Sequence record: LC918680.1
Strand: one strand, 5' to 3'
Source: a phage
DNA: 46,345 nt
The notes below the pieces were generated by a model that was given only the letters and a program-made list of their open reading frames with translations, had not been told where the DNA came from and made no database searches. Made by a program: the position numbers and the translations under genes. Positions 6,487 through 44,213 of this stretch are shown here, in pieces (positions within the stretch are counted from its first letter, which is position 1; each line of letters starts with the position of its first letter).

Positions 6487-6882
6487 ATGAACGAACAAGC
6501 ATTAGCCTTTATGAAGTCGCTGGTTCCTGCTCTTAAGAATATTCCAGATGAAACGCTGGACGTATGGCTTGAGTTAGCTAAGCTATACATCTGCACCAGT
6601 AAGTTTGGTGATGATGCTTATAAAGCGCTGTCGCTATACACTCTGCACATTGCCTTTCTTGATGGCGCGCTTAAGCAGAATGAGTCGCTGGATGATTATG
6701 GCAAGAAGGTGGCAAGTTACTCCCTGAGCGGTGAATTTTCTATCAGCTATGAATCCACCTCGCAAACTCAATCATCATTGACAGCTACGCCGTGGGGCAG
6801 ACTTTACTGGAATCTCCTGCGCAAGAAAGGCGGCGGATTTGGCTTGATTACGTCCGCTGGGCGTGAGTGCGGTTGCCAATGA
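6487..6882 (+). CDS. putative head-tail connector/adaptor protein
   Basis: ATG 6487 with GGAGG upstream (track start 6472 is TTG); position between capsid and tail genes; stop overlaps next start (ATGA). Confidence 0.45.
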   Translation: MNEQALAFMKSLVPALKNIPDETLDVWLELAKLYICTSKFGDDAYKALSLYTLHIAFLDGALKQNESLDDYGKKVASYSLSGEFSISYESTSQTQSSLTATPWGRLYWNLLRKKGGGFGLITSAGRECGCQ

Positions 6883-7250: not shown

Positions 7251-7680
7251 AAATATTGGTGGGTTGGCTACATTTACGAATAGTATTGCTGATTGGATTG
7301 ATAGAGCTGATGATAACTTCTCTGATATTGTTTCTGGCACTGTAATTAAGGCTGCTAACGCCATCGTTGATTTATCGCCTGTTGATACTGGTAGGTTTAA
7401 GGCTAACTGGCAGATTACAGCGAACTCCCCAGCCGCCCAGTCTCTGAATGATTACGACAAAACAGGTGGAGATACAAAAAGGTATCTGGCAAGGCAAGCT
7501 CGAGCTGTGGCTAATTCACCAGCGACAAAGGTTATCTACATAACTAACAGGCTTGATTACGCCTCTGACCTTGAGTATGGAGCGTCACAACAAGCTCCAG
7601 CAGGTGTCCTTGGCGTTGTGAATATCAGGTTAGGAAGATACTTCGAAGAGGCAGTTGCCGAAGCAAGGAGTAAAAGATAA
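7243..7680 (+). CDS. putative neck/head-tail joining protein (HK97 gp10-like by position)
   Basis: ATG 7243 overlapping upstream stop; neck-module position; family assignment unverified. Confidence 0.45.
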   Translation: MARNIGGLATFTNSIADWIDRADDNFSDIVSGTVIKAANAIVDLSPVDTGRFKANWQITANSPAAQSLNDYDKTGGDTKRYLARQARAVANSPATKVIYITNRLDYASDLEYGASQQAPAGVLGVVNIRLGRYFEEAVAEARSKR

Positions 7681-15333: not shown

Positions 15334-18300
15334 ATGGCACAAATGGTCAAAACAAATGCGGAGCTATGTGATATGGCGGAAGAAATTAAGATTTATGGAA
15401 GTAAGGGCGGACAGCCAAAGCAGCACCAACCTGTAGAGCAGCCTGATAACCTGATATCCGTAAACAAGGTTAAGGTTTTGCTAGCTGTTTCTGATGGTGA
15501 GGTTGATAGCTCATTCTCCCTAAAGGACCTTTACCTTGCTGACGTTCCTGTACAGAACCAGAATGGCACATACAACTACGAGGGTGTAACGGCAGAGTTT
15601 CGCCCTGGCACACAGAGTCAGGATTACATTGCCGGGCTAGAGGGTGCTAGCTCGGAAGTGCAAGTGAACAGGGAGATTAAAAACTCAACTCCTTACATCA
15701 TTGCTGTTAATAACACCCAGCTATCAGCGATTAGGGTTAAGCTGTTTTGGCCTCGTCTGATTAATCAGGAAAGTAACGGAGATCTTAACGGTACCACTTG
15801 CGAGTATGCGATTGACCTGTCCGTTGATGGCGCTACATACACTGAGTACACGCGCGGAGTAGTTAATGGCAAGACAACTAGCGGGTACGACAGAAGTATC
15901 AGGGTTAACCTTCCTGCTGAGTTCTCGAGTGCGTTGGTGAGGGTTCGTAAGATCACGGCAGATTCAGAAAGTTCGACGCTGGTTAACGACATGCAAATTA
16001 CGACCTATCAGGAAGTAATTGATGCTAAATTCCGCTACCCACTTACAGCTCTGGTTTACGTTGAGTTCAGTTCTGACCTCTTCCCTAACGGAATCCCGAC
16101 GATTTCAATCAAGAAGAAGTGGAAGTTGATTCGCGTTCCAACTAACTACAACCCAGAGACAAGGACTTACAGCGGAACCTGGAACGGCACCTTTAAGATG
16201 GCGTATTCCAATAACCCGGCGTGGGTTCTTTACGACTTGGTGACGAATCAGCGTTACGGACTTGACCAGCGAGAGCTTGGCATTACTATTGATAAGTGGG
16301 GTCTGTATGAGGCGGCGCAATTCTGTGACCAGATGGTTCCAGATGGTAAGGGTGGAGTTGAGCCGCGCTACCTGTGTGATGTTGTCATTCAGCAGAAAGT
16401 TGAAGCATATCAGGTAATCCGTGATATTTGCTCTATCTTCCGTGGGCTGACATTCTATGACGGCGAGCAGATAGGGATTGTTGTCGATAAGCCGCGTCAA
16501 CCATCGTACGTATTCACCAATGACAACGTTGTTGATGGATTGTTCAACCGTACATTTGGTAGCGATAAGTCACTTTACACGGTTGCCAACGTTCAGTTTG
16601 ATGACGTTGAAAACTCATACCAACAGGATGTTGAGCCAGTATTCGAGTTAGAGGCAACAAGGCGTTTTGGTTACAACCCGGTCGACCTTACAGCTATTGG
16701 ATGTACTCGCAGGAGTGAGGCAAACCGCCGCGGGCGCTGGTTATTAAAGACGAACATTCGCAGCGAGACTATTAGTTTCACTACTGGTCTGGAAGGTATG
16801 ATTCCAATGATTGGTGAGGTTATTGCAGTTAATGACCAGGCATGGTCTAGCAACTACACCCTTAACCTTTCTGGTCGTATCGAGTCAGTAAGTGGGTTGC
16901 AAGTTTTTGTGCCATTTAAGATTGATGCTACTGCTGGCGACAGGATTCTAATAAACAAGCCTGATGGAATGCCAGAGTACAGGACCATTGCATCTGTATC
17001 TGAAGATGGTATGACGCTTCAACTTAATACAGCGTTTAGCTTTACTCCTCAGCCTGACACAGTATTTGCGATTGATAAGGAAAATCTTGCTCTTCAGCAA
17101 TATGTTGTGACCGGTATTCAAAAAGCAGACAGCGATGGAGATGATGCGTTTGGTTACACGATTACCGCAGTTGAGTACGACCCGAACAAATACGACGAGA
17201 TTGATTACGGCGTAAACATTCAGGACAGGCCAACTTCAATCGTGGAGCCAGATACATTACTGGCACCCGAGAATGTTCAGGTTAGCAGTTACAGTAAGGT
17301 TGTTCAGGGTTTATCAGTTGAGACAATGGTAATCACGTGGGACAAGGTTCAGTACGCGAAAACCTACACGGTCCAGTGGCGCAAGGAGAACGGAAACTGG
17401 ATTAACGTGCCGCGCACAGCAAGCACAGAGGTTGATATTGAAGGTATCTATGCCGGAATTTACCAGGTTCGCGTAAGGGCCGTTTCTGATACTGAAAACG
17501 TATCCGCATGGTCTGACATTGTTTCAGTAAGCCTCACAGGCAAGATTGGGACCCCTTCTTCACCTACAGTAATCACCGCTTCAGATGATGAAATATTCGG
17601 CATTAGGGTTAAGTGGGGATTTCCTGAAAACTCAGCCGATACGTCATACACTGAATTGCAGCAAGTAGCCGACAATGGTGATGGTACTTATACACCAGAG
17701 AATGCTAGCCTTCTGACTCTGGTGCCTTACCCGAGTTACGAGTACTGGCATACTACACTTCCTGCTGGAAAGGTCATCTGGTACAGGGCGCGACTGATTG
17801 ACAAGATTGGTAACGTCTCACCATGGACTGATTTTGTAAGGGGTATGGCAAGCGATGATGTGTCGTCAATCATTGGTGATATTAAGGTTGATATAGAAAA
17901 CTCAGATGGGTTCAAGTATCTCCAGCAGAATGCCATTGAGTCAAACGGAGCTATTCAGGCGCAAGCGGAATCAATAATTGAGAACGCCCTGGCTAATGAT
18001 GGTGACGTGCGTAGAATGACGAAGGAAAACGGCAAGAGGAAGGCCGAATTTGTTCAGGCTGTGAATCTTATCGCCGATGAAGAAAGGGCTCGCGTAGAGG
18101 CTCTGACGCAGCTTAAGGCGCAGATTGATGATGAGATTGTAGCTTCATTGACAAGGATTGATACGGCGCTAGCGGAAGAGACGCAAGCAAGGACCACTGC
18201 GGACACTGCTTTATCTGCAAGGCTAGGTGATAATGAGGCTGCGTTAAATGAGAAGCTGGACACTTACGTTACTGCCGATTCAATTGGTGCTCAGTACGGG

Positions 18301-18729
18301 ATTAAACTTGGCCTCAAATACAATGGCGTTGAGTACAGTTCTGGCATGAGTATGGAGCTAACTGGTTCTGATGGCAATGTTCGTAGTCAGGTCATCTTTG
18401 ATGCTAACAGGTTCGCAATCAGTAACGGTGTTAGTTCAGGTTCCGGTCAGTGGTCATTGCCTTTCGTAGTTGAGAATAACCAGGTATTCATCCAAAGCGC
18501 GGTAATTCAGGATGGTTCAATTACTAACGCGAAGATTGGTAACTCGATTCAGTCAAACAACTACGTTGCTAACTCGCAGGGCTGGAGTTTAAACAAAGCT
18601 GGGACATTCGAGAATAACGGCTCAACTGCTGGCGAAGGTAAGATGAAGCAGACGAACCAAACAATTTCGGTTGCGGATGCTAATGGAAGGCTTCGTGTTC
18701 AGATTGGTCGTTTAACTGGCACATACTAA
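15334..18729 (+). CDS. tail tip/central fibre host-specificity protein (lambda J-like)
   Basis: 1131-aa ORF at end of tail module, larger than any other non-tape-measure ORF. Confidence 0.85.
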   Translation: MAQMVKTNAELCDMAEEIKIYGSKGGQPKQHQPVEQPDNLISVNKVKVLLAVSDGEVDSSFSLKDLYLADVPVQNQNGTYNYEGVTAEFRPGTQSQDYIAGLEGASSEVQVNREIKNSTPYIIAVNNTQLSAIRVKLFWPRLINQESNGDLNGTTCEYAIDLSVDGATYTEYTRGVVNGKTTSGYDRSIRVNLPAEFSSALVRVRKITADSESSTLVNDMQITTYQEVIDAKFRYPLTALVYVEFSSDLFPNGIPTISIKKKWKLIRVPTNYNPETRTYSGTWNGTFKMAYSNNPAWVLYDLVTNQRYGLDQRELGITIDKWGLYEAAQFCDQMVPDGKGGVEPRYLCDVVIQQKVEAYQVIRDICSIFRGLTFYDGEQIGIVVDKPRQPSYVFTNDNVVDGLFNRTFGSDKSLYTVANVQFDDVENSYQQDVEPVFELEATRRFGYNPVDLTAIGCTRRSEANRRGRWLLKTNIRSETISFTTGLEGMIPMIGEVIAVNDQAWSSNYTLNLSGRIESVSGLQVFVPFKIDATAGDRILINKPDGMPEYRTIASVSEDGMTLQLNTAFSFTPQPDTVFAIDKENLALQQYVVTGIQKADSDGDDAFGYTITAVEYDPNKYDEIDYGVNIQDRPTSIVEPDTLLAPENVQVSSYSKVVQGLSVETMVITWDKVQYAKTYTVQWRKENGNWINVPRTASTEVDIEGIYAGIYQVRVRAVSDTENVSAWSDIVSVSLTGKIGTPSSPTVITASDDEIFGIRVKWGFPENSADTSYTELQQVADNGDGTYTPENASLLTLVPYPSYEYWHTTLPAGKVIWYRARLIDKIGNVSPWTDFVRGMASDDVSSIIGDIKVDIENSDGFKYLQQNAIESNGAIQAQAESIIENALANDGDVRRMTKENGKRKAEFVQAVNLIADEERARVEALTQLKAQIDDEIVASLTRIDTALAEETQARTTADTALSARLGDNEAALNEKLDTYVTADSIGAQYGIKLGLKYNGVEYSSGMSMELTGSDGNVRSQVIFDANRFAISNGVSSGSGQWSLPFVVENNQVFIQSAVIQDGSITNAKIGNSIQSNNYVANSQGWSLNKAGTFENNGSTAGEGKMKQTNQTISVADANGRLRVQIGRLTGTY

Positions 18730-18739
18730 CTGATAAAAT

Positions 18740-18760
18740 AGGCAAATGGATTTGCCTTTA
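18740..18760 (+). terminator. hairpin/weak terminator after J-like gene
   Basis: AGGCAAA-TGGA-TTTGCCT then TTTATAAAT. Confidence 0.4.
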
Positions 18761-18776
18761 TAAATAGGAGTAAATT

Positions 18777-19091
18777 ATGGCTGAGTATGGAATTGCAACA
18801 TATGACGCGAACGGTAATTACAATAACTACGGGATTAGACCTGTAACAGTTGTTGGTAATATCTCGCTTGCTAATGGACAGACATCTGGTAGCTACAGCT
18901 TTACGATACCAGCAGGTACTAAGGTTAATTTCGTCGTCGCGACTCAATCTGACTCGCTAATTAGCTACACCAATAAGCGTTTAATATCCGCATCTGGAAA
19001 TACGATAAATATATCTGCAACAACAGGATATGGTAACGGCGTTACATCCACTGGTGCTTCTAATGTTATTGTCTTTCTGGAGAATGCGTAA
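18777..19091 (+). CDS. hypothetical Ser/Thr/Asn/Gly-rich protein (putative fibre-associated)
   Basis: 104-aa ORF immediately after J-like gene; composition resembles the next ORF. Confidence 0.45.
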   Translation: MAEYGIATYDANGNYNNYGIRPVTVVGNISLANGQTSGSYSFTIPAGTKVNFVVATQSDSLISYTNKRLISASGNTINISATTGYGNGVTSTGASNVIVFLENA

Positions 19092-19759
19092 TGAGTTATG
19101 GAGCGTACATAAATGTAAATGGTAACCCGTTCATAACCCAGAACTCAACGCCGATGGCGCTTTATAGAAAAGTTACAATTAACTCAACGAAATCAAATAA
19201 TTTCAACTCAGCTAGCGCCTCAGTAAACATACCAGGAGGAACGTCACTGATAGGTTTTGGGAGGACCAGTGGGTATGCAGCAATAAGTAGCTCAATATCT
19301 GGGAGTACAGTTTCGGTAAGCGCTAGCAACTACAAAGTTACAAATTTCACTCTTGAAGCTTATTTCTTTGCTATATTCCCACAAGAACTACCAGCGTGGG
19401 GTATGGCAATATGGGATGATTCAGGTAAGTTAATACTAACAAATGAAACAAAAGTAATGACTGACTTGATAACGATTGGTACGCCAGGAGCTTCTAGTGG
19501 AGGTGTGTTTATAGATACAACAATACAAGGTAGGAAGCTTGCTGTTTGCCCTGGGGTACTTGGTGCGGTTTTGCTTGCAGGCCCTCCTCAGCAGGGGCAG
19601 CCCACAATTCAGCCAGTCACGGCATACACTGCATGTCATGACCAAGATGGAGGAACAAGGTTTAGGTCAGCAACTTCAAGTAGCGCATCCGGCGGTAGCC
19701 TTGGAGCTTCAAACCTTGGAACAATAATGACCGCCATTGACGTTTCAATATATGACTAA
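19091..19759 (+). CDS. hypothetical Ser/Thr/Gly-rich protein (putative fibre-associated)
   Basis: 222-aa ORF start-overlapping upstream stop (TAATG); followed by strong terminator. Confidence 0.45.
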   Translation: MSYGAYINVNGNPFITQNSTPMALYRKVTINSTKSNNFNSASASVNIPGGTSLIGFGRTSGYAAISSSISGSTVSVSASNYKVTNFTLEAYFFAIFPQELPAWGMAIWDDSGKLILTNETKVMTDLITIGTPGASSGGVFIDTTIQGRKLAVCPGVLGAVLLAGPPQQGQPTIQPVTAYTACHDQDGGTRFRSATSSSASGGSLGASNLGTIMTAIDVSIYD

Positions 19760-19782
19760 GCCCCTTTCGGGGCTTTTTTATT
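19759..19782 (+). terminator. intrinsic terminator at end of + strand structural block
   Basis: AGCCCC-TTTC-GGGGCT + TTTTTT. Confidence 0.8.
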
Positions 19783-20002
19783 AACCACCACAGTCGTGAT
19801 CTTTAAAGTTAGACTCCGAAACGTAGTGGAAAGAGAATGGGTATCCAGCACGTAACAGTAGTTCGTCACCTCTTTGCTGAGTACCAAAAACATAAACCGA
19901 GTACTCTGACCCAGCAGATTCATAAATTGCGGTACAAGTGCGCTCAGGCATTGAAGAGCATCCAGTCAGTAATAACGCTGCGCAGATAATAAACTTTTTC
20001 AT
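19781..20002 (-). CDS. small lipoprotein, Cor-like superinfection-exclusion candidate
   Basis: MKKFIICAALLLTGC signal peptide with lipobox; 73 aa; convergent with tail module. Confidence 0.55.
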   Translation of the reverse strand: MKKFIICAALLLTGCSSMPERTCTAIYESAGSEYSVYVFGTQQRGDELLLRAGYPFSFHYVSESNFKDHDCGG

Positions 20003-20168
20003 AAAATCTCCTTAGAAGCCGTTAAAGTTTGAGGCAAGCAGCAGAACCCACACTAAGAAACCAGTTACAGAAGCACCCGCAAAAGTTGAAATTAAGTTAG
20101 TAGTTAATCTCTTGTTTAGGTTGTTTCGTTTCGATGTGGTAATCATAAACCATCATTAAGCTTTGTCT

Positions 20169-20858
20169 TTAGCTATTAGTGCTATTTGCAATAAACACAG
20201 CCTTTGCAAAACCGCGAGGAGTTAGGCTGCGGATTACCTTTGTCTTCTTGCTCTTTCCACCTAACTTCTTGTATTGGTCAGAGAATCCATCGTTAACGCC
20301 CACCGGAATCGCCTTAGGCCATTTAAACCCATTACCAAACCAAATGCATGTCTTCTTAGGATATGCGTCTCTTGGCTTTATTAGGTCGCTAAAAAACGGG
20401 TGTAAATCATCTTCCGGCAAATAGCCTCCGTATTCATATGGGTGGAAAGTCTTATTAGGCTTTCTCCAGAGTGATGACAGTACGCTGATTGGATTCTCAA
20501 TCATGTATGGGACTTCGTACTTATTAGCCAAGTTAAAAGCAACTTTACATGTTTCCGCAGCTTCAATCTGGAAGTTATGGTTAACCAGTCGCTTTCGCTC
20601 AAAGTGCCTTGACCCGCTCACGGCTAAATCCGTACACGGCGGGAACGCTAAAATGATATCAGGCTTCACATCAAAGTCGAAGTCGGCATCTATCCAGACA
20701 TTAACGTAGGTGATGTTCTCATGTCCAAATTTTGCATTTAAATCCACGTAACTACCGTGGTCAGACTCATCAAAGTTGAAACAGTAGCACTCGTGACCAG
20801 CCTCAGCCCAATCTTTCACAGCCAGCCCTGAACCATCAAATAAAGACCAAACAACCAT
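20169..20858 (-). CDS. putative DNA methyltransferase with C5-cytosine MTase-like motifs
   Basis: Motif I-like FDGSGL, Pro-Cys FPPCTDLAVSG, ENV-like IENP; start placed at internal ATG 20858 preceded by conserved ACGAGAGAGG leader (track start 20900 has no RBS); unusually short (229 aa). Confidence 0.5.
   Translation of the reverse strand: MVVWSLFDGSGLAVKDWAEAGHECYCFNFDESDHGSYVDLNAKFGHENITYVNVWIDADFDFDVKPDIILAFPPCTDLAVSGSRHFERKRLVNHNFQIEAAETCKVAFNLANKYEVPYMIENPISVLSSLWRKPNKTFHPYEYGGYLPEDDLHPFFSDLIKPRDAYPKKTCIWFGNGFKWPKAIPVGVNDGFSDQYKKLGGKSKKTKVIRSLTPRGFAKAVFIANSTNS
20170..20184 (-). promoter_or_regulatory. boundary motif copy 3
   Basis: - strand TAGCACTAATAGCTA overlapping MTase stop. Confidence 0.5.
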
Positions 20859-20900
20859 TTTGAAATCCTCTCTCGTTTTTTTGTGTGACCAACTATACAT

Positions 20901-21399
20901 GGTTTTGCGGATTAGTTTTAGCTATTCGTGCTGTTGGTTACGCGTAACCGATGTAACTCTATGTATACCATATGCATCAGCGGGAAATCGTATACGCCTA
21001 ATTACGCTTTGATACGCCATAGTTACATTAAAATATATATATATATCAACCTTTTACTCTTATTATTATTATTATATATATTACTGTGTATATCATGTAA
21101 CTACTGTCATGGAGCGTTCCGGTTATAATTTTTATATCATGTGATTTTATACAGTATTTCGCTGCACCTATACCTATGCACCATCCGCTAAAATTGGTAT
21201 ACACGATATACGCACCATTTACATTGAGCTATAGCTGGGCTCAGGCAGTGAAAAACGTAACCAATAGAAATGTCTACACGTAGTTACGGATTTATACGCG
21301 TATACTTGATTAATTAATCGGCGATACCAATTGGACTGTGTGTCTTGCGTGCGGCATCATTAACGCATCGAAAGCAAACAGCCACAGAGAGATAGAGAA
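20901..21399. repeat. control region A: gene-free AT-rich divergent intergenic region, paralogous to region B
   Basis: Shares with region B the blocks TATATATATCAACCTTTTACT, (ATT)n-TATATATA microsatellite and AGCTATAGCTGGGCT...CGTAACCAAT; contains palindromes GGTTACGCGTAACC (20936-20949) and TATACGCGTATA (21293-21304). Confidence 0.7.
20919..20933 (-). promoter_or_regulatory. boundary motif copy 4 (degenerate)
   Basis: - strand CAGCACGAATAGCTA upstream of MTase leader. Confidence 0.4.
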
Positions 21400-21787: not shown

Positions 21788-22759
21788 ATGACATTTAAAG
21801 TTTATACGAACGACGAGCTAACAAATGAATCCTATCACGAAGAGCAAGACCATATCTCTGGCTCTTCACTGGCTGAGATTCTTGCTACCTCACCAGCTAA
21901 ATGGAAGTTTAAGCAGCGCAATAACTCTAGCGCAGCACTTAAGTTTGGCACACTAAGTCACTGCATGATGCTAGAGCGCGAGGTGTTTGACTCAACATAC
22001 ATGCGAGCTACTGACTTTGACGAAGTGGAAGGATTGATTACTAGCCAAACGGCTTTATCCGCAGCGCTTAAAAAAGTTGGAGTTTCAGGCACGTCAGGGA
22101 AGGGTTATAACGAGCTTGTAGAGATGATGTATAAGTGTGGTGAGGATTGGCCTGTTAAATGGTTAATTGAGCAGCAGGAGAGCGCTCATGCGCTAATTAG
22201 TGGCAAAGAGCTCGTTACTGCGAAAGATTACGATAAAGTAATTCAAATGCGAGAGGTTCTAACTAATATTCCGGCATATGATTCGGTCATTAATTCACCA
22301 TCAGCGCAGAAAGAACTATCAATATTTGGTGAGATTCTCGGTTGTGGTGTTAAGGTTCGTCTTGACCATGTGGATGTTGTTGATGGTATTGTCTACATTA
22401 CTGACTACAAAACCACAGCAGATGCAAGTCCTAGAGGATTTGGGAAGTCAGCTTATGACCATGGATACCTGTGCAAGATGGCACTTCAGCGAGATCTGTT
22501 TGTGAAAGCCTTTAATGAGAAACGCAAGGTTGTAGTTCGCCTTTTGGCACAGGAGAAAGCAGAGCCTTACTTACCTATGTGCTACACGCTTACGGATGAG
22601 CAGCTTCGCATTGGGCGCTTACAATATTTAGAGGCTCTGGCTGTTTACAAGCAGTGCAAGGAACTTGATGTGTGGCCTGGGTATAGCAATGGGATTACAG
22701 AGCAAGATTTGATGATTCCTGAGTGGGTAAGTAAGCAGTATCAAGAACTTCTAAAATAG
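21788..22759 (+). CDS. PD-(D/E)xK family exonuclease (recombination exonuclease)
   Basis: VRLDHVDVVDGIVYITDYKT gives D...D-x-K nuclease motif; adjacent to Erf-like and SSB genes. Confidence 0.7.
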   Translation: MTFKVYTNDELTNESYHEEQDHISGSSLAEILATSPAKWKFKQRNNSSAALKFGTLSHCMMLEREVFDSTYMRATDFDEVEGLITSQTALSAALKKVGVSGTSGKGYNELVEMMYKCGEDWPVKWLIEQQESAHALISGKELVTAKDYDKVIQMREVLTNIPAYDSVINSPSAQKELSIFGEILGCGVKVRLDHVDVVDGIVYITDYKTTADASPRGFGKSAYDHGYLCKMALQRDLFVKAFNEKRKVVVRLLAQEKAEPYLPMCYTLTDEQLRIGRLQYLEALAVYKQCKELDVWPGYSNGITEQDLMIPEWVSKQYQELLK

Positions 22760-22771
22760 CACTAATTGCTA
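22757..22771 (+). promoter_or_regulatory. boundary motif copy 5
   Basis: TAGCACTAATTGCTA; starts at exonuclease stop TAG. Confidence 0.6.
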
Positions 22772-22829
22772 AAGACAAAATTAACAGGTGGGGTATCATT
22801 ACCCCATCGAAACGAAAGAGAGATGGGGA

Positions 22830-23960: not shown

Positions 23961-23984
23961 AAAGCCCCTTTCGGGGCTTTTTTA
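23961..23984. terminator. bidirectional intrinsic terminator between convergent ssb and tail-fibre genes
   Basis: A-run + GCCCC-TTTC-GGGGC + T-run. Confidence 0.8.
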
Positions 23985-26516
23985 TGCAAGAGAAACTCTT
24001 GAGTTTGCAAATATCAAGGCGTCCCTTTGATTATCAAATTCTACAACAAAATAATCAGCAAGGCTTAATACCATACCAGTTAATCCATTGAGGTTAATGT
24101 TAAGGTTTGCAACGCCAGAAACCGAAGCCTGACCAACTCCAAATGTATGAACCCACTTACCACGCTCAGTAAACACACTGCCTAATGATGCGCTACCAAA
24201 AATGTTTATAATACCATCAGCACCGCCTTGAATCCTGTTTGCAGAAATACCCCAAACATACCATTTTCCGGAAGTTATATTAAAGCGACCATTTATCAAT
24301 TCGTACTGAGCCGCACCATCTAATTCGTAGTATCCAGATGATTGCGAGTGTATACCCCTTGTATCAGAACCTTCCCTTGACGACCCTGTTCCACCAAAGT
24401 CGTTTCCACCAGTACCAAAAGGCCTCCTGACTAAAACAATTCCGGAATCGGGGTTAAAAACTCGACCTTTAGTAACATATCCTCTAACAGATAGGTTTGA
24501 AGTGCCAGTTATCTTGGCTGTCTGTGATACCAGCGACTCAACTATAACGTTTGATGTTGAAGATCCATTCAGGTATGCATCCTTAGCAAAAATAATACTG
24601 TTCGAATCAAGAGAGAAACTTTGGTGCCCATCAGCGTTATCAAACCTGCACCCATAAGTTACAAGGTTTGAATTTGATAACTCAATGTTATTAATATAAG
24701 AATGCTCAGCAAAGAAAACGGACGTATCGATGAGCTTCAAAACCCTTGGGAGTTCAGCTCCCTCACCTACGTTAATTGCTCCCCCAGTTGCTATCGCTTC
24801 AAACCATACGTTAGACAATCCGCAAGGTGATGTTGGGCAATCTCCAGGTTTATTCTTTAACCTTATACCGCCGCCAGCAGAGGCCTCCATTATTGAATCC
24901 CTAATCCACCACCCACCAATTCCTCCAGCAACAGGGTTCGTTGCGCTACTTGTGCTTGTCGCATCTAGCATTACTGAATATTGAGAGATTGTATCTGAGT
25001 GGTATCCGTATAAAGTGTCCGCTCCTATATGCATTTCGTCATGAGCTTTGGCTCGATACCCGTAATTCGCATTTCTAATACTTACGTTTCTGTAGGTATT
25101 TCCAATGTTGCCAGCATTTTTCCTTATACCAACATCCAGGTTATTGAAGTAAAGCCTATCCAATACAACCCTTCCAGCATAAGGGTCATCCGGGAATTGA
25201 AAGCCGTTATTACCTTGTATTGCAGTACCTGTAAACTGCAAATCCGATAAATGCTTTTGCCTCCAGTGCGGAACCGATAGCGTTGAGGTGAGTCCGGTTT
25301 CAAAAGGTTTAACACTTATTACGGTATTATATCCAGAGCCTGATATGTTCCTGCCAGCAAAGGAGTAGTTATTACTCTCATAAGTTCCCGGGCTTATAAC
25401 TACCGACCCGCCATCGCCAGCGGCTTCTATTGCTGAAGATATTGAGCCGCTATAGCTTGATGTGCTTTTTGAATCTGTATTTAAAATTGATGACACCTCA
25501 CCCTTTGAGTAAACATCAAGGTTGGTTCTTGCCACGGACTTATCTGCAATGTCTGAAAGATTCAATGATTTTTGAAACGTCTCGGATTTTGAGTAAACAT
25601 CAAGCAACCCCCTAACCCTTGACGCGCTTGATCCACCAGTTGCAGCATTACCGCCAGGCAAGCTTAGTACTTCCCTTACATAAAAAACCCTAGATCCAGT
25701 CTCACCAGAAATTGTGACATCTGCAATCCTAAAATTTGAGTCTGACCCAGTAGACGGAGATAACCTTAATACATTAGCCGAATTAACACCCCTAGATGCA
25801 ATAACATCAATACAAATAGGAGTTGTTGAAACCGGAAACATTGAACTAATTTCTTTTGGGGTGTTTAACATATTCCTAAGTGTGCACTGATAACGACCTC
25901 CGGAATAAAATTGCATTGTTTGCCAATCTAAAGAGGTAAGTAATGGCGTTGTCGTGCTACCTATTCCGTGATTAGCAAAGTAAGCAACAGCCGCTGTATT
26001 TCCAGCTGCATTTATTGCCTCAACCGTCCTGTTATATGAATTTTGTGCGTTAGTGCTTGCACCAACTGCGGTCGCTGCACTTTCAGCAGCAGCAATCTGA
26101 CTAGCTAACGCCTCCGCAGCTCCGGTAGTTGACTGAGTTGCCAGTTGTTCAAAACGAGGCCAATCAAAAGTATCTTGACCAATAAATTGCAGTAGACTTT
26201 CAATAGAAGTCTCTTTTGACTGGTAGTAACGCAATGTTTCCGCAACATCCTGTGCCAACCCCTGAACAGTAATTCCATCATGAGCAAGAATTGCGTAACC
26301 AGTACCAGCGGGAACAGTTTCAGAACTTGGATTATAAACATTAACCTGAGTATCGCTGATGATTTCAGAGATGGTGTAAATTTTCAGAGGGCTGGTTTTG
26401 AAAATGATAGTAGCACCTACACGAATCAGTGTAAGAGGTGCTTTCCATGTAGTACCTACGCCAGTAACCTCGCCATTTGAGGCTAGTGATGCTGTTCCTA
26501 AGTCATAAATTGCCAT
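23982..26516 (-). CDS. tail fibre/tailspike protein
   Basis: 844-aa ORF, Gly/Ser/Asn/Thr-rich with repetitive beta-rich character; own promoter-like TGGTAGAAT upstream. Confidence 0.7.
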   Translation of the reverse strand: MAIYDLGTASLASNGEVTGVGTTWKAPLTLIRVGATIIFKTSPLKIYTISEIISDTQVNVYNPSSETVPAGTGYAILAHDGITVQGLAQDVAETLRYYQSKETSIESLLQFIGQDTFDWPRFEQLATQSTTGAAEALASQIAAAESAATAVGASTNAQNSYNRTVEAINAAGNTAAVAYFANHGIGSTTTPLLTSLDWQTMQFYSGGRYQCTLRNMLNTPKEISSMFPVSTTPICIDVIASRGVNSANVLRLSPSTGSDSNFRIADVTISGETGSRVFYVREVLSLPGGNAATGGSSASRVRGLLDVYSKSETFQKSLNLSDIADKSVARTNLDVYSKGEVSSILNTDSKSTSSYSGSISSAIEAAGDGGSVVISPGTYESNNYSFAGRNISGSGYNTVISVKPFETGLTSTLSVPHWRQKHLSDLQFTGTAIQGNNGFQFPDDPYAGRVVLDRLYFNNLDVGIRKNAGNIGNTYRNVSIRNANYGYRAKAHDEMHIGADTLYGYHSDTISQYSVMLDATSTSSATNPVAGGIGGWWIRDSIMEASAGGGIRLKNKPGDCPTSPCGLSNVWFEAIATGGAINVGEGAELPRVLKLIDTSVFFAEHSYINNIELSNSNLVTYGCRFDNADGHQSFSLDSNSIIFAKDAYLNGSSTSNVIVESLVSQTAKITGTSNLSVRGYVTKGRVFNPDSGIVLVRRPFGTGGNDFGGTGSSREGSDTRGIHSQSSGYYELDGAAQYELINGRFNITSGKWYVWGISANRIQGGADGIINIFGSASLGSVFTERGKWVHTFGVGQASVSGVANLNINLNGLTGMVLSLADYFVVEFDNQRDALIFANSRVSLA

Positions 26517-40380: not shown

Positions 40381-40436
40381 ATATCCCTCCTCGTTGTTGA
40401 TGAGCGAACTATAACTCCGCAATACCTAAATGTCTT

Positions 40437-40450
40437 TAGCAAAAAGTGCT
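40437..40450 (-). promoter_or_regulatory. boundary motif copy 13 (spacer variant)
   Basis: - strand TAGCACTTTTGCTA at edge of control region B. Confidence 0.4.
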
Positions 40451-41053
40451 ATTAGTTGGATTTATTTATTGTTGCAGATATTGCAATGATTAATCTTACT
40501 ATTGCACATATAACAATATTGCATCGAATGCAATGATGTTTTTGATTGTTGCGGGATTTGCAATGATTGATGTGAGGGTGAATGAATGGTGAATGAACTA
40601 CCATACAAGTTGATTTTGATTCTTGCTGAGCCAATTTGGATATACACGTTATCGAAGTTATGGTGTGTATATGAGGTGCGCTTCCGAAGAATCATACACG
40701 CCTACCACGCTAGATTACGCAATGGTTACATAATAATATCTATATATATCAACCTTTTACTATATTATTATTATTATTATATATATGTATGTATATGGTG
40801 TAGATTGGTCGTATGGATGGGTCGATAGTTTTTCTATGAAAACTACTAATTTTATCTATATAGATACATATGCATACCCCCGGCGAATCCGCGTAAAATA
40901 TTACACAGGGTAATTACACCAGCTATAGCTGGGCTGAGAGGTCAAAAAGCGTAACCAATGCAGATATAAACACAACATAACACTTGATAACGCGTATATT
41001 CATGATACCATGGTTTCATCTTAACGAAGAGCAACCAATCAGGAGTAACGAAT
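40451..41053. repeat. control region B: gene-free AT-rich divergent intergenic region, paralogous to region A; iteron-like TGCAATGAT repeats
   Basis: Same conserved blocks as region A at about 40741-40790 and 40920-40975; three TGCAATGAT copies plus further TTGCA half-sites at about 40470-40570; coordinates +/-2. Confidence 0.7.
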
Positions 41054-42584: not shown

Positions 42585-42724
42585 TTTACGTTCACACGTA
42601 CTATACAGGTAAGTTTAACAGCGTTAAGCACGTGCGAGTTTATGAATCCTACAATGAAGCAAAAGCTCAGATGGATGTTCTTGGTGGTGCCGTGCATCGA
42701 TGCGAAGTAGTTGAAGAATTATAA
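42581..42724 (+). CDS. hypothetical small protein
   Basis: 47-aa ORF; stop immediately precedes a boundary motif. Confidence 0.4.
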   Translation: MIYVHTYYTGKFNSVKHVRVYESYNEAKAQMDVLGGAVHRCEVVEEL

Positions 42725-42725
42725 A

Positions 42726-42740
42726 TAGCACGAATTGCTA
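42726..42740 (+). promoter_or_regulatory. boundary motif copy 16
   Basis: TAGCACGAATTGCTA directly after stop TAA. Confidence 0.6.
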
Positions 42741-42799
42741 AACATGAATTGGGATAGGTTGTTATACTTATCCCATCAAAACGAGATGAGGAATTGACG

Positions 42800-43921: not shown

Positions 43922-44143
43922 ATGAAAAGTATGGTGACACATTCGAGTGTGACGGCGACAACCTTGAGGTACTATCAACATTCAATAGAGGTGAAAAGAA
44001 TGAGCTTCACTGAATATGTTATCGCATGTGAACGACTGGTCTTTGATATGAAGACTTTTCACTGGTTCATAATTAAGGATTTAATCAAGCCTTACAAGCA
44101 AGGAGTAACACCTGAGACGTTTGTTAAGTCATTCTATAAATAG
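43922..44143 (+). CDS. hypothetical protein
   Basis: 73-aa ORF; stop TAG is the first 3 nt of a boundary motif. Confidence 0.45.
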   Translation: MKSMVTHSSVTATTLRYYQHSIEVKRMSFTEYVIACERLVFDMKTFHWFIIKDLIKPYKQGVTPETFVKSFYK

Positions 44144-44155
44144 CACGAATTGCTA
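44141..44155 (+). promoter_or_regulatory. boundary motif copy 17
   Basis: TAGCACGAATTGCTA; starts at upstream stop TAG. Confidence 0.6.
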
Positions 44156-44213
44156 AATGCATGCGTCATGGATGGCATATAATTACCATATCAACATAAC
44201 GAGAGGGTAGAAA

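What the first reader, a model, noticed from the sequence alone, without database searches (positions are those of the whole stretch)
19781..20002. Convergent small lipoprotein after the tail genes: Cor-like superinfection-exclusion candidate
A 73-aa ORF on the opposite strand has a classic lipobox (LLTGC). It sits just beyond the J-like host-specificity gene and the two fibre-like ORFs. In phages whose receptor-binding protein targets an outer-membrane transporter, a small lipoprotein at this position typically inactivates the receptor to block superinfection.
Basis: partly seen in the sequence, partly recalled or inferred. Interest (0 to 1): 0.45.

Follow-up and report, generated by a model that had tools for sequence, protein, structure and literature searches.

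The report
Cor exclusion lipoprotein of T1-like phage
The small reverse-strand gene after the tail genes is an ordinary copy of cor, a known phage lipoprotein gene that shuts down the bacterial FhuA receptor so that other phages using that receptor cannot attach to the cell.

Summary
Window 19781-20002 (minus strand) encodes a 73-aa protein. It has a GGAG ribosome-binding site, a lipoprotein signal peptide (MKKFIICAALLLTG|C) and Ser at +2.

It matches PHROG 1119 "Cor superinfection exclusion protein" over its full length (E 4e-27). It passes NCBIfam's curated Cor equivalog model (49 bits against a cut-off of 31). It is 77% identical to phage T1 Cor and 80% to Cor of BASEL phage JulesPiccard. 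It is under purifying selection (dN/dS 0.10-0.16).

The locus is the canonical FhuA-type cassette of T1: J, a 104-aa gene, a 222-aa gene, a terminator, then convergent cor. Every BASEL Drexlerviridae phage that matched this Cor or its partner protein has FhuA as its measured receptor.

The gene is therefore already known in kind and of low interest. Three side observations:
- The whole receptor module is swapped relative to the nearest genome, phage ES.
- The 222-aa partner protein is a divergent allele closest to Citrobacter prophage proteins.
- A 16-nt deletion removed the start of a conserved 34-aa peptide gene that precedes cor in relatives.

The parts
19781..20002 (-). cor coding sequence (73 aa precursor, 59 aa mature lipoprotein)
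   Evidence: ORF. PHROG 1119 E 4.2e-27. NF047972 49.3 bits against a cut-off of 31. 233 phage records hold a homologue. dN/dS 0.10-0.16.
19958..20002 (-). Lipoprotein signal peptide (aa 1-14) plus the lipidated Cys15. The lipobox LTGC is at 19958-19969.
   Evidence: Read directly from the sequence. L12, G14 and C15 are invariant in 19 homologues. Only 2 of 1073 candidate starts in the window match the lipobox pattern.
20008..20011 (-). GGAG ribosome-binding site of cor. It sits in TAAGGAG, where TAA (20012-20014) is the stop codon of the upstream small ORF.
   Evidence: Sequence. TAAGG is conserved in all relatives aligned.
19758..19775 (.). GC-rich hairpin between the convergent 222-aa gene and cor. 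It is an intrinsic terminator for the tail operon (T-run on the + strand) and the 3'-end hairpin for cor.
   Evidence: Terminator scan. Folding gives -13.8 kcal/mol (z -4.4) on + and -13.5 kcal/mol on -. T1 and MM01 carry an annotated terminator at the same place.
20012..20146 (-). Remnant of a small hydrophobic-peptide gene directly upstream of cor. The conserved part is 20012-20104. Its normal RBS and ATG are missing because of a 16-nt deletion between 20108 and 20107.
   Evidence: In relatives this is a 34-aa ORF (MTNLTTNLISTFAGGAVTGFLVWVLLLASNFNGF) with third-position wobble. The only in-frame ATG left in the window (20146-20144) lies inside the -10 hexamer.
20124..20187 (-). Promoter/operator-like element that probably drives cor: AAGACA-16 nt-TATGAT, preceded by the palindrome TAGCA-N5-TGCTA.
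   Evidence: Promoter scan. It forms a 64-nt inverted repeat with 22754-22817. The core has six copies in the window against 0 expected. TATnnT and CATCGAAACGAAA are invariant, and an RBS plus ATG follows in the other five copies.
19091..19759 (+). 222-aa putative FhuA receptor-binding protein (PHROG 425), the functional partner of cor in the cassette
   Evidence: PHROG 425 E 1.3e-49. 43-47% identical over full length to T1 ST31, JulesPiccard, N15 gp23 and phi80 gp23. Family criterion taken from the 2026 preprint read.
18777..19091 (+). 104-aa accessory or tail-tip protein of the cassette (PHROG 557)
   Evidence: PHROG 557 E 7.4e-23. 45-54% identical to T1 ST32, JulesPiccard, N15 gp22 and phi80 gp22.
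15334..18729 (+). J-like central tail fibre or tip protein. Its last ~47 codons (from 18586) belong to the exchanged receptor module.
   Evidence: Pfam FNIII-A_GpJ, Phage_Tail_Tip and Phage-tail_3. PHROG 31. Homology with phage ES stops at 18585.

Best explanation
This is the cor gene of a T1-like (Drexlerviridae, Braunvirinae-like) phage. It encodes an outer-membrane lipoprotein that inactivates the phage's own terminal receptor, FhuA, from the periplasmic side.

Proposed sequence of events:
1. Host RNA polymerase transcribes cor from the promoter-like element at 20187-20124. The same element precedes the erf/ssb genes and four other small-gene units (inferred).
2. The precursor is exported. 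Lgt adds diacylglycerol to Cys15, and signal peptidase II cleaves after Gly14. [quoted passage not shown] These steps are inferred from the sequence features and the established E. coli lipoprotein pathway.
3. The 59-residue mature domain is a small SH3-like beta-barrel. Its ends are tied together by a Cys23-Cys71 disulphide (mature Cys9-Cys57). The fold is predicted here; the disulphide is inferred from the invariant cysteines and from Llp Cys11-Cys58.
4. The domain binds the periplasmic face and plug of FhuA. This locks FhuA in a state in which extracellular loops fold over the binding site for phage receptor-binding proteins. The step is shown structurally only for T5 Llp and is inferred for Cor. 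Functional inactivation of FhuA by Cor is reported in the literature for phi80, N15 and mEp167-type Cor.

Consequence: FhuA-dependent phages, including this phage's own progeny, can no longer adsorb irreversibly to the infected cell or to its debris.
For: Family membership:
- PHROG 1119 E 4.2e-27 over residues 1-72.
- NCBIfam equivalog NF047972, 49.3 bits against a cut-off of 31.
- 233 phage records hold a homologue, many annotated Cor. Identity is 76.7% to T1 and 80.3% to JulesPiccard.

Conserved features:
- In 19 homologues that include T1, N15 and phi80 Cor, these residues are invariant: L12, G14, C15, C23, C71 and R51-A-G-Y-P55 of the RAGYPF motif (F56 is nearly invariant).

Synteny:
- The order J, PHROG 557, PHROG 425, terminator, cor is identical to T1 ST33-ST30, JulesPiccard bas03_0028-0031 and MM01.
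- N15 and phi80 have the same three genes with cor co-directional.

Receptor:
- The BASEL supplement lists FhuA as the measured terminal receptor of JulesPiccard, PeterMerian, JakobBernoulli, BrunoManser and LeonhardEuler. All five appear among my hits.
- PMC13164509 reports that the three-gene cassette is restricted to FhuA phages.

Fold:
- The AF2 model has pLDDT 83.7.
- Among the top 50 Foldseek hits, Llp has the highest query-normalised TM-score and the lowest rmsd.
- A Cor-family profile finds Llp as the top PDB sequence hit, E 0.0033.

Llp mechanism and Cor-Llp kinship: PMC9586334 and bioRxiv 10.64898/2026.03.26.714494.

Selection: dN/dS 0.10-0.16.
Against: - Nothing was tested experimentally: not lipidation, localisation, FhuA binding or exclusion.
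- The molecular mechanism of Cor itself has not been solved. The 2026 Llp preprint says so. The allosteric step is borrowed from Llp, which is only about 22% identical.
- The Foldseek E-value for Llp is not significant (0.095). Pfam has no model that matches.
- The partner 222-aa protein is a divergent allele. It is at most 50% identical to any deposited phage protein and 59% to Citrobacter prophage proteins. The FhuA assignment therefore rests on family-level criteria, and the host is not known.
- The promoter is a consensus match plus repeat conservation, not a mapped start site.
- Loss of the start of the upstream cistron could reduce cor expression if the two genes are translationally coupled.
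Confidence: 0.88

Rival explanations
1. This is a Cor-family lipoprotein that jams an outer-membrane transporter other than FhuA (for example BtuB, or the FhuA orthologue of another genus with altered specificity). That transporter would match a partner receptor-binding protein that has changed target.
For: The 222-aa partner is unusually divergent: under 60% identity to all 345 phage records, with its nearest full-length relatives in Citrobacter freundii genomes at 59%. PMC13164509 notes Cor-like proteins in BtuB-dependent phages.
Against: This Cor is 75-84% identical to Cor of phages with measured FhuA dependence. The partner still meets the criterion of more than 30% identity over full length that defines the FhuA-specific family in the 2026 preprint. 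Both accessory genes are present, an arrangement reported only for FhuA phages. The C-terminus of J matches FhuA-type phages and not phage ES.
Confidence: 0.06
2. The molecular action is the same, but the selected benefit in this virulent phage is not exclusion of competitors. Instead it protects released progeny from wasting themselves on receptor-bearing debris of lysed cells ('lytic conversion', as argued for T5 Llp).
For: The phage looks strictly lytic: it belongs to the T1 family and no integrase or repressor was found near this locus. PMC13164509 states that this mechanism also prevents adsorption of progeny to cell remnants. Llp is formally named 'lytic conversion lipoprotein'.
Against: The two benefits are not exclusive, and sequence data cannot separate them. 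If the shared promoter element marks early genes, early expression would serve exclusion as well.
Confidence: 0.3
3. The ORF is another kind of small phage lipoprotein, such as an o-spanin (Rz1-like), or a chance ORF with a lipobox-like start.
For: There are weak PHROG hits to Rz-like spanin families, E 0.017-0.3.
Against: Those hits cover only residues 1-24, which is the signal peptide. The lysis cassette is elsewhere: holin 35926-36189, endolysin 36189-36674 and u-spanin 36671-37057. Full-length Cor matches, invariant motifs and dN/dS of 0.10-0.16 rule out a chance ORF.
Confidence: 0.01
4. The gene is intact but poorly expressed or decaying in this phage, because a 16-nt deletion removed the start of the upstream cistron of its transcription unit.
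For: The deletion is seen relative to contigs L011 and L012, which carry a 99% identical cor. In the other five copies of the promoter element a gene start follows within about 25 nt.
Against: cor keeps its own GGAG site and ATG. No disabling change is present. It differs by only 2 nt from the L011 copy. T1 cor has no such upstream peptide gene at all.
Confidence: 0.05

Closest known systems
Cor of coliphage T1 (ST30, YP_003915.1) and of BASEL phage JulesPiccard/Bas03 (QXV81858.1)
   Same: Identity is 77-80%, with the same length class (73-75 aa), lipobox, two further cysteines and the RAGYPF motif. The locus and convergent orientation are the same: after J and the PHROG 557 / PHROG 425 pair, with a terminator hairpin in between. 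Both phages use FhuA (T1, Bas03).
   Different: The partner 222-aa protein is only 43-47% identical to theirs. T1 lacks the small hydrophobic ORF and the promoter repeat upstream of cor. JulesPiccard has the small ORF intact, whereas the window has lost its start.
Cor of temperate phages phi80 and N15 (the founding, experimentally studied members of the family)
   Same: The family is the same: 38% identity, with invariant C15, C23, C71 and RAGYPF. The three-gene cassette after the J homologue is the same. These are FhuA-dependent phages.
   Different: In phi80 and N15, cor is co-directional with the tail genes and acts as a prophage-expressed lysogenic-conversion gene. Here it is inverted, has its own promoter-like element, and sits in a virulent phage.
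Llp, lytic conversion lipoprotein of phage T5 (PDB 8A60 chain B, 7QJF)
   Different: Identity is only about 22-24%. A single-sequence search is not significant (E 0.53) and the family profile is borderline (E 0.0033). The genomic context differs: next to pb5 in a Demerecviridae genome. The partner receptor-binding protein is unrelated. I therefore regard it as the same structural superfamily and probably the same mechanism, not the same family.
Convergent lipoprotein plus 320-aa protein module at the same locus in Escherichia phage ES (PHROG 4281 / PHROG 1265)
   Same: It occupies the same slot after J in the nearest whole-genome relative. It is preceded by the same promoter-like element. It also encodes a small lipoprotein (MTNLIKLSIIAAAAIIMVGC|SS...) that is presumably the cognate exclusion factor.
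   Different: The protein families are unrelated, and both genes are convergent to J. The receptor is presumably different. I did not determine which.

Membership tests
Cor superinfection-exclusion lipoproteins (NCBIfam NF047972 / PHROG 1119) | Sequence match to the curated family model above its cut-off, over the full length | tested here: met
   NF047972 gives 49.3 bits against a cut-off of 31, residues 1-71 on profile positions 1-76 of 78. PHROG 1119 gives E 4.2e-27, residues 1-72.
Cor superinfection-exclusion lipoproteins (NCBIfam NF047972 / PHROG 1119) | Type II (lipoprotein) signal peptide with a lipobox and a residue at +2 that allows outer-membrane sorting | tested here: met
   MKKFIICAALLLTG|CS. 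L12, G14 and C15 are invariant in 19 homologues. Residue +2 is Ser. Only 2 of 1073 candidate starts in the window fit the pattern. Actual lipidation was not testable.
Cor superinfection-exclusion lipoproteins (NCBIfam NF047972 / PHROG 1119) | Two further conserved cysteines near the ends of the mature protein, and the RAGYPF core motif | tested here: met
   C23, C71 and R51-A-G-Y-P55 are invariant, and F56 is nearly invariant, across the T1-like, N15 and phi80 proteins.
Cor superinfection-exclusion lipoproteins (NCBIfam NF047972 / PHROG 1119) | Position directly after the J homologue and the two-gene PHROG 557 / PHROG 425 cassette of FhuA-dependent siphophages | tested here: met
   The order is the same as in T1, JulesPiccard, MM01, N15 and phi80. 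The association with FhuA comes from PMC13164509 and the BASEL tables.
Cor superinfection-exclusion lipoproteins (NCBIfam NF047972 / PHROG 1119) | Expression abolishes FhuA functions: adsorption of T1, phi80 and T5, and ferrichrome, albomycin and colicin M uptake | not testable with these tools
   This needs a plasmid expression and plating or uptake experiment. The literature reports the phenotype for other members.
T5 Llp family (lytic conversion lipoprotein) | Recognisable sequence homology to Llp | tested here: inconclusive
   phmmer gives E 0.53. A Cor-family profile gives E 0.0033, 20.8 bits, covering the signal peptide and the first ~28 mature residues.
T5 Llp family (lytic conversion lipoprotein) | Llp fold: a small beta-barrel closed by a disulphide between the N- and C-terminal segments | tested here: met
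T5 Llp family (lytic conversion lipoprotein) | Encoded next to a pb5-type receptor-binding protein in a T5-like genome | tested here: not met
   The neighbours are a lambda-J-like protein and PHROG 557 / PHROG 425 proteins in a T1-like genome.
Phage spanins (o-spanin / u-spanin lipoproteins) | Homology beyond the signal peptide, and a position in the lysis cassette | tested here: not met
   Spanin PHROG hits have E 0.017 or worse and cover residues 1-24 only. The lysis cassette, with its own u-spanin, is at 35926-37057.

The most novel reading that the evidence does not exclude
In Braunvirinae and Rogunavirinae-type phages, cor may be the second gene of a two-gene unit. The first gene would be a conserved 34-aa hydrophobic peptide, under protein-level selection, whose stop codon overlaps the cor ribosome-binding site. 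That peptide could be an unrecognised accessory or second-layer exclusion factor, and this phage has lost it through a 16-nt deletion. Separately, a T1-type Cor is paired here with a receptor-binding allele closest to Citrobacter prophages. This may show that the periplasm-facing exclusion factor and the surface-facing receptor-binding protein evolve and recombine independently, so that one Cor serves FhuA variants of several genera.
Probability: 0.15. Interest if true: 0.35.

Novelty: already known. Interest (0 to 1): 0.1.

Why it matters
As a discovery it matters little. Cor has been known since the 1990s, T1's cor sits in the same place, and curated models name this protein automatically.

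The identification has practical value:
- It predicts FhuA as the phage's terminal receptor.
- It predicts that cells infected with this phage, or engineered to express this gene, will resist T1, phi80, T5 and other FhuA-dependent phages and lose ferrichrome uptake.

The locus is also a clean example of modular exchange of receptor-binding and exclusion cassettes between T1-like phages. The breakpoints lie in the last ~47 codons of J and, on the right, at 20916/20917, just upstream of the methyltransferase gene.

Tried and rejected
- Pfam gave no hit for the ORF at E up to 1, so Pfam cannot classify it. PHROGs and NCBIfam could.
- A single-sequence search of PDB sequences was not significant: Llp at E 0.53, with an unrelated PvuII chain ranked above it. 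A family profile was needed.
I rebuilt the alignment from window and database proteins only.
- Spanin identity was considered and rejected.
- I first treated the 44-aa ORF at 20012-20146 as a possible intact upstream gene. Comparison with relatives shows that its true start was deleted and that the remaining ATG lies inside the -10 hexamer.
- The terminator-like sites at 20216-20196 and 19915-19896 lie inside coding sequence, have weak stems, and were disregarded.
- The 33-nt direct repeat 19923/21220 (76% identity, two copies) was treated as a chance match.
- I did not try to identify the receptor of the phage ES module.

Full report
**Observation.** GGAG lies 5 nt upstream of the ATG, inside TAAGGAG.

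The N-terminus, MKKFIICAALLLTG|CSS, is a classic type II signal peptide. It has two lysines, a nine-residue hydrophobic core, the lipobox L-T-G-C and Ser at +2. In E. coli (established lipoprotein-sorting rules) Ser at +2 means transfer to the outer membrane. I applied a lipoprotein-signal pattern to all 1073 candidate starts with at least 40 codons, in six frames. Only two matched: this ORF and the 128-aa protein at 36671-37057. The latter is the phage's u-spanin, next to the holin and endolysin. The lipobox is therefore not a chance feature.

Against homologous genes the ORF shows dN/dS of 0.10 (metagenome contig L007) and 0.16 (JulesPiccard), so it is a protein-coding gene under purifying selection.

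**What the window is.** It starts with a terminase large-subunit-sized ORF and has the gene order of a T1-like siphophage. The first 25 kb match Escherichia phage ES (Drexlerviridae, Braunvirinae) at 90% over 85% of the length. They match many other Drexlerviridae phages more weakly.

**Identity of the ORF.**
- It matches PHROG 1119, "Cor superinfection exclusion protein", over residues 1-72 with E 4.2e-27.
- It scores 49.3 bits on NCBIfam NF047972, "phage exclusion lipoprotein Cor", an equivalog model whose cut-off is 31.
- Pfam has no matching model.
- tblastn finds a full-length homologue in 233 phage records. The best is 84% identical (BUCT-XGG-1). JulesPiccard is 80% and T1 is 76.7%, and many are annotated Cor.
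- In the large protein collection the best match is 99% identical, on two short metagenome contigs. The next is 86%.
- In an alignment of 19 homologues that includes the founding members from N15 and phi80 (38% identity), several residues are invariant: the lipobox L12, G14 and C15; two further cysteines, C23 and C71; and R51-A-G-Y-P55. F56 is nearly invariant.

**Context.** The gene order is: J-like protein (15334-18729, with Pfam GpJ and tail-tip domains); a 104-aa ORF (PHROG 557); a 222-aa ORF (PHROG 425); a hairpin terminator at 19758-19775; then convergent cor. This is identical to T1 ST33-ST30, JulesPiccard bas03_0028-0031 and MM01. N15 and phi80 have the same three genes after their J homologue, but there cor is co-directional.

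They are the conserved pair regarded as the receptor-binding locus of FhuA-dependent small siphophages. PMC8594841 matched alleles of this locus to receptors. PMC13164509 reports that the cassette of cor plus both upstream genes occurs in T1, HK022, N15, ES18, phi80 and ten BASEL phages, all of them FhuA-dependent. A 2026 preprint defines the FhuA-specific receptor-binding family by more than 30% identity at full coverage. The window's 222-aa protein is 43-47% identical over its full length to the T1, JulesPiccard, N15 and phi80 proteins. The 104-aa protein is 45-54% identical to its counterparts.

Five BASEL Drexlerviridae phages turned up among my hits: JulesPiccard, PeterMerian, JakobBernoulli, BrunoManser and LeonhardEuler. 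The BASEL supplementary table lists FhuA as the measured terminal receptor of all five.

**Fold and mechanism.** AlphaFold2, run with a 23-sequence alignment, gives a confident model: mean pLDDT 83.7, and above 90 for residues 21-70. It shows a small four-stranded barrel.

- Foldseek E-values are not significant. Even so, among its top 50 hits Llp has the highest query-normalised TM-score (0.54; 0.62 normalised by Llp) and the lowest rmsd.
- A profile of the Cor family finds Llp as its top PDB sequence hit (E 0.0033). It aligns C23 with the first disulphide cysteine of Llp.
- In mature numbering the window protein has Cys9 and Cys57. Llp has the Cys11-Cys58 disulphide that ties its termini together.

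The Llp-FhuA structure shows the lipoprotein on the periplasmic face, bound to a non-native plug conformation. Extracellular loops 7 and 8 fold inward over the phage-binding site. The authors propose that Cor works the same way (PMC9586334). A 2026 preprint concludes that Llp and Cor belong to one structural family. It also notes that Cor proteins are known to inactivate FhuA functionally but that their own mechanism has not been solved.

My mechanistic account therefore has three levels:
- Shown here: the lipoprotein signal, family membership, synteny, and an Llp-like predicted fold with equivalent cysteines.
- Taken from the literature on other members: FhuA inactivation.
- Inferred by analogy with Llp: periplasmic binding to the plug and allosteric closure of the loops.

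**Expression.** Directly upstream of cor, at 20187-20124 on the minus strand, lies a promoter-like element, AAGACA-16 nt-TATGAT. It forms a 64-nt inverted repeat with 22754-22817, just upstream of the erf gene. Its core, AATAGCACNAATNGCTAAAGACAA, occurs six times in the window against none expected.

The six copies share the palindrome TAGCA-N5-TGCTA, an invariant TATnnT and the motif CATCGAAACGAAA. In five of them an RBS and start codon follow within about 25 nt. The cor copy is the exception. Its relatives are the two contigs with 99% identical cor, contig L007, JulesPiccard and MM01. In all of them the element is followed by a 34-aa hydrophobic ORF whose stop codon overlaps the cor RBS, and the differences between these copies are mostly third-position wobble. 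The window has a 16-nt deletion, between 20108 and 20107, that removes this ORF's RBS spacer and ATG. The only in-frame ATG left (20146) sits inside the -10 hexamer.

cor keeps its own RBS, and T1 has no such peptide gene. I therefore expect cor to be expressed, but I could not test this. That the element is a promoter, and an early one, is inference.

**Module exchange.** Against phage ES, homology runs at 90% up to 18585, about 47 codons before the end of J. It resumes at 20917. The segment between, 18586-20916, holds the J tip, the two cassette genes, cor, the peptide remnant and a Dcm-like methyltransferase. In ES it is replaced by a different convergent pair: a 320-aa PHROG 1265 protein and an 81-aa lipoprotein of PHROG 4281. 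That pair is preceded by the same promoter element. This fits the horizontal exchange of receptor-binding and exclusion modules described for this phage family.

Within the window's module the histories differ. Cor and the J tip resemble those of E. coli T1-like phages at about 75% DNA identity. The 222-aa gene has no phage homologue above 60% protein identity. Apart from two short metagenome contigs (82% and 75%), its closest full-length relatives are Citrobacter freundii chromosomal, presumably prophage, proteins at 59%. One plausible reading is that the surface-facing binder tracks variable FhuA loops while the periplasm-facing Cor sees a conserved plug. This is untested, and the host of the window phage is unknown.

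**Rivals.**
- A different target transporter is unlikely, given the identity to Cor of phages with measured FhuA dependence and the complete FhuA-type cassette. The divergent partner keeps a small probability alive.
- Spanin identity is excluded. The spanin hits cover only the signal peptide, and the lysis cassette is elsewhere.
- A chance ORF is excluded by homology and selection.
- Whether the main benefit to a virulent phage is exclusion of competitors or protection of progeny from debris cannot be decided from sequence. Both follow from the same molecular action.

**Verdict.** The gene is an ordinary orthologue of a long-known family in its canonical place, so novelty is "already known" and interest is low. 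The side observations (lost peptide gene, six-copy promoter element, module swap, Citrobacter-like partner allele) are minor but recorded.

Noticed in passing
window 20012-20146 (minus strand); deletion junction between 20108 and 20107: A conserved 34-aa hydrophobic-peptide gene precedes cor in relatives (MTNLTTNLISTFAGGAVTGFLVWVLLLASNFNGF). It shows third-position wobble, and its stop codon overlaps the cor RBS. In the window a 16-nt deletion has removed its RBS spacer and ATG, and the remaining in-frame ATG lies inside a -10 hexamer. Its function is unknown, and T1 lacks it.
   Followed up: partly
window 20163-20186(-), 22755-22778(+), 32174-32197(+), 40430-40453(-), 42724-42747(+), 44139-44162(+): There is a six-copy promoter/operator-like element: AATAGCACNAATNGCTAAAGACAA with the palindrome TAGCA-N5-TGCTA, then an invariant TATnnT and CATCGAAACGAAA. 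Each copy sits just upstream of a gene start. None is expected by chance. It precedes the cor unit, the erf/ssb unit and four small-gene units, and it is conserved in phage ES.
   Followed up: partly
window 18586-20916 versus L005 (phage ES) 5862-7335: The whole receptor module (J tip, two cassette genes, cor, peptide remnant, methyltransferase) is exchanged relative to the closest genome. ES carries instead a convergent 320-aa PHROG 1265 protein and an 81-aa PHROG 4281 lipoprotein behind the same promoter element.
   Followed up: partly
window 19091-19759 (+): The 222-aa putative receptor-binding protein is a divergent allele. It is under 60% identical to all 345 phage records. Apart from two short metagenome contigs (82%, 75%), its nearest full-length relatives are Citrobacter freundii chromosomal proteins at 59%. 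The adjacent Cor, by contrast, is about 80% identical to Cor of E. coli T1-like phages.
   Followed up: partly
window 20169-20900 (-): This is a Dcm-like C5 cytosine methyltransferase (PHROG 757, E 4.7e-86). It reaches only 15.4 bits on Pfam DNA_methylase, below that model's cut-off of 22. It lies inside the segment exchanged relative to phage ES and is 84.5% identical in DNA to the JeanPiccard gene. Its last codons overlap the promoter element of cor.
   Followed up: no
window 35926-37057 (+): This is the lysis cassette: holin (PHROG 2877), endolysin (PHROG 7) and a 128-aa lipoprotein spanin (PHROG 1804, MKAALIAAVIILSG|C). The spanin is the only other lipobox protein in the window.
   Followed up: yes
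L003 (N15) 6619-6855 and L004 (phi80) 7299-7532 versus window 19781-20002: cor is co-directional with the tail genes in the temperate phages N15 and phi80. It is inverted (convergent, with a terminator in between) in T1, JulesPiccard, MM01 and the window. This suggests a different transcriptional wiring in virulent T1-like phages.
   Followed up: no
L005 (GenBank OR466728, phage ES) 7028-7321, 8017-8988, 9540-10190, 10231-10668: The deposited annotation of phage ES looks wrong in several places. The lipoprotein start is placed inside the promoter element; PHROG 4281 aligns only from residue 17, and the likely start is at L005 7273. Three genes that align with the window's exonuclease VIII, Erf and the following 143-aa ORF (the SSB position in JulesPiccard) are labelled capsid maturation protease, head morphogenesis protein and terminase small subunit.
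   Followed up: no
window 23982-26516 (-): This is an 844-aa lateral tail-fibre gene. The N-terminal 370 residues match PHROG 24092 and the C-terminal 500 match PHROG 27367. It is convergent with the recombination genes, at the position of T1 ST26. It probably determines the primary (glycan) receptor and is independent of the cor cassette.
   Followed up: no
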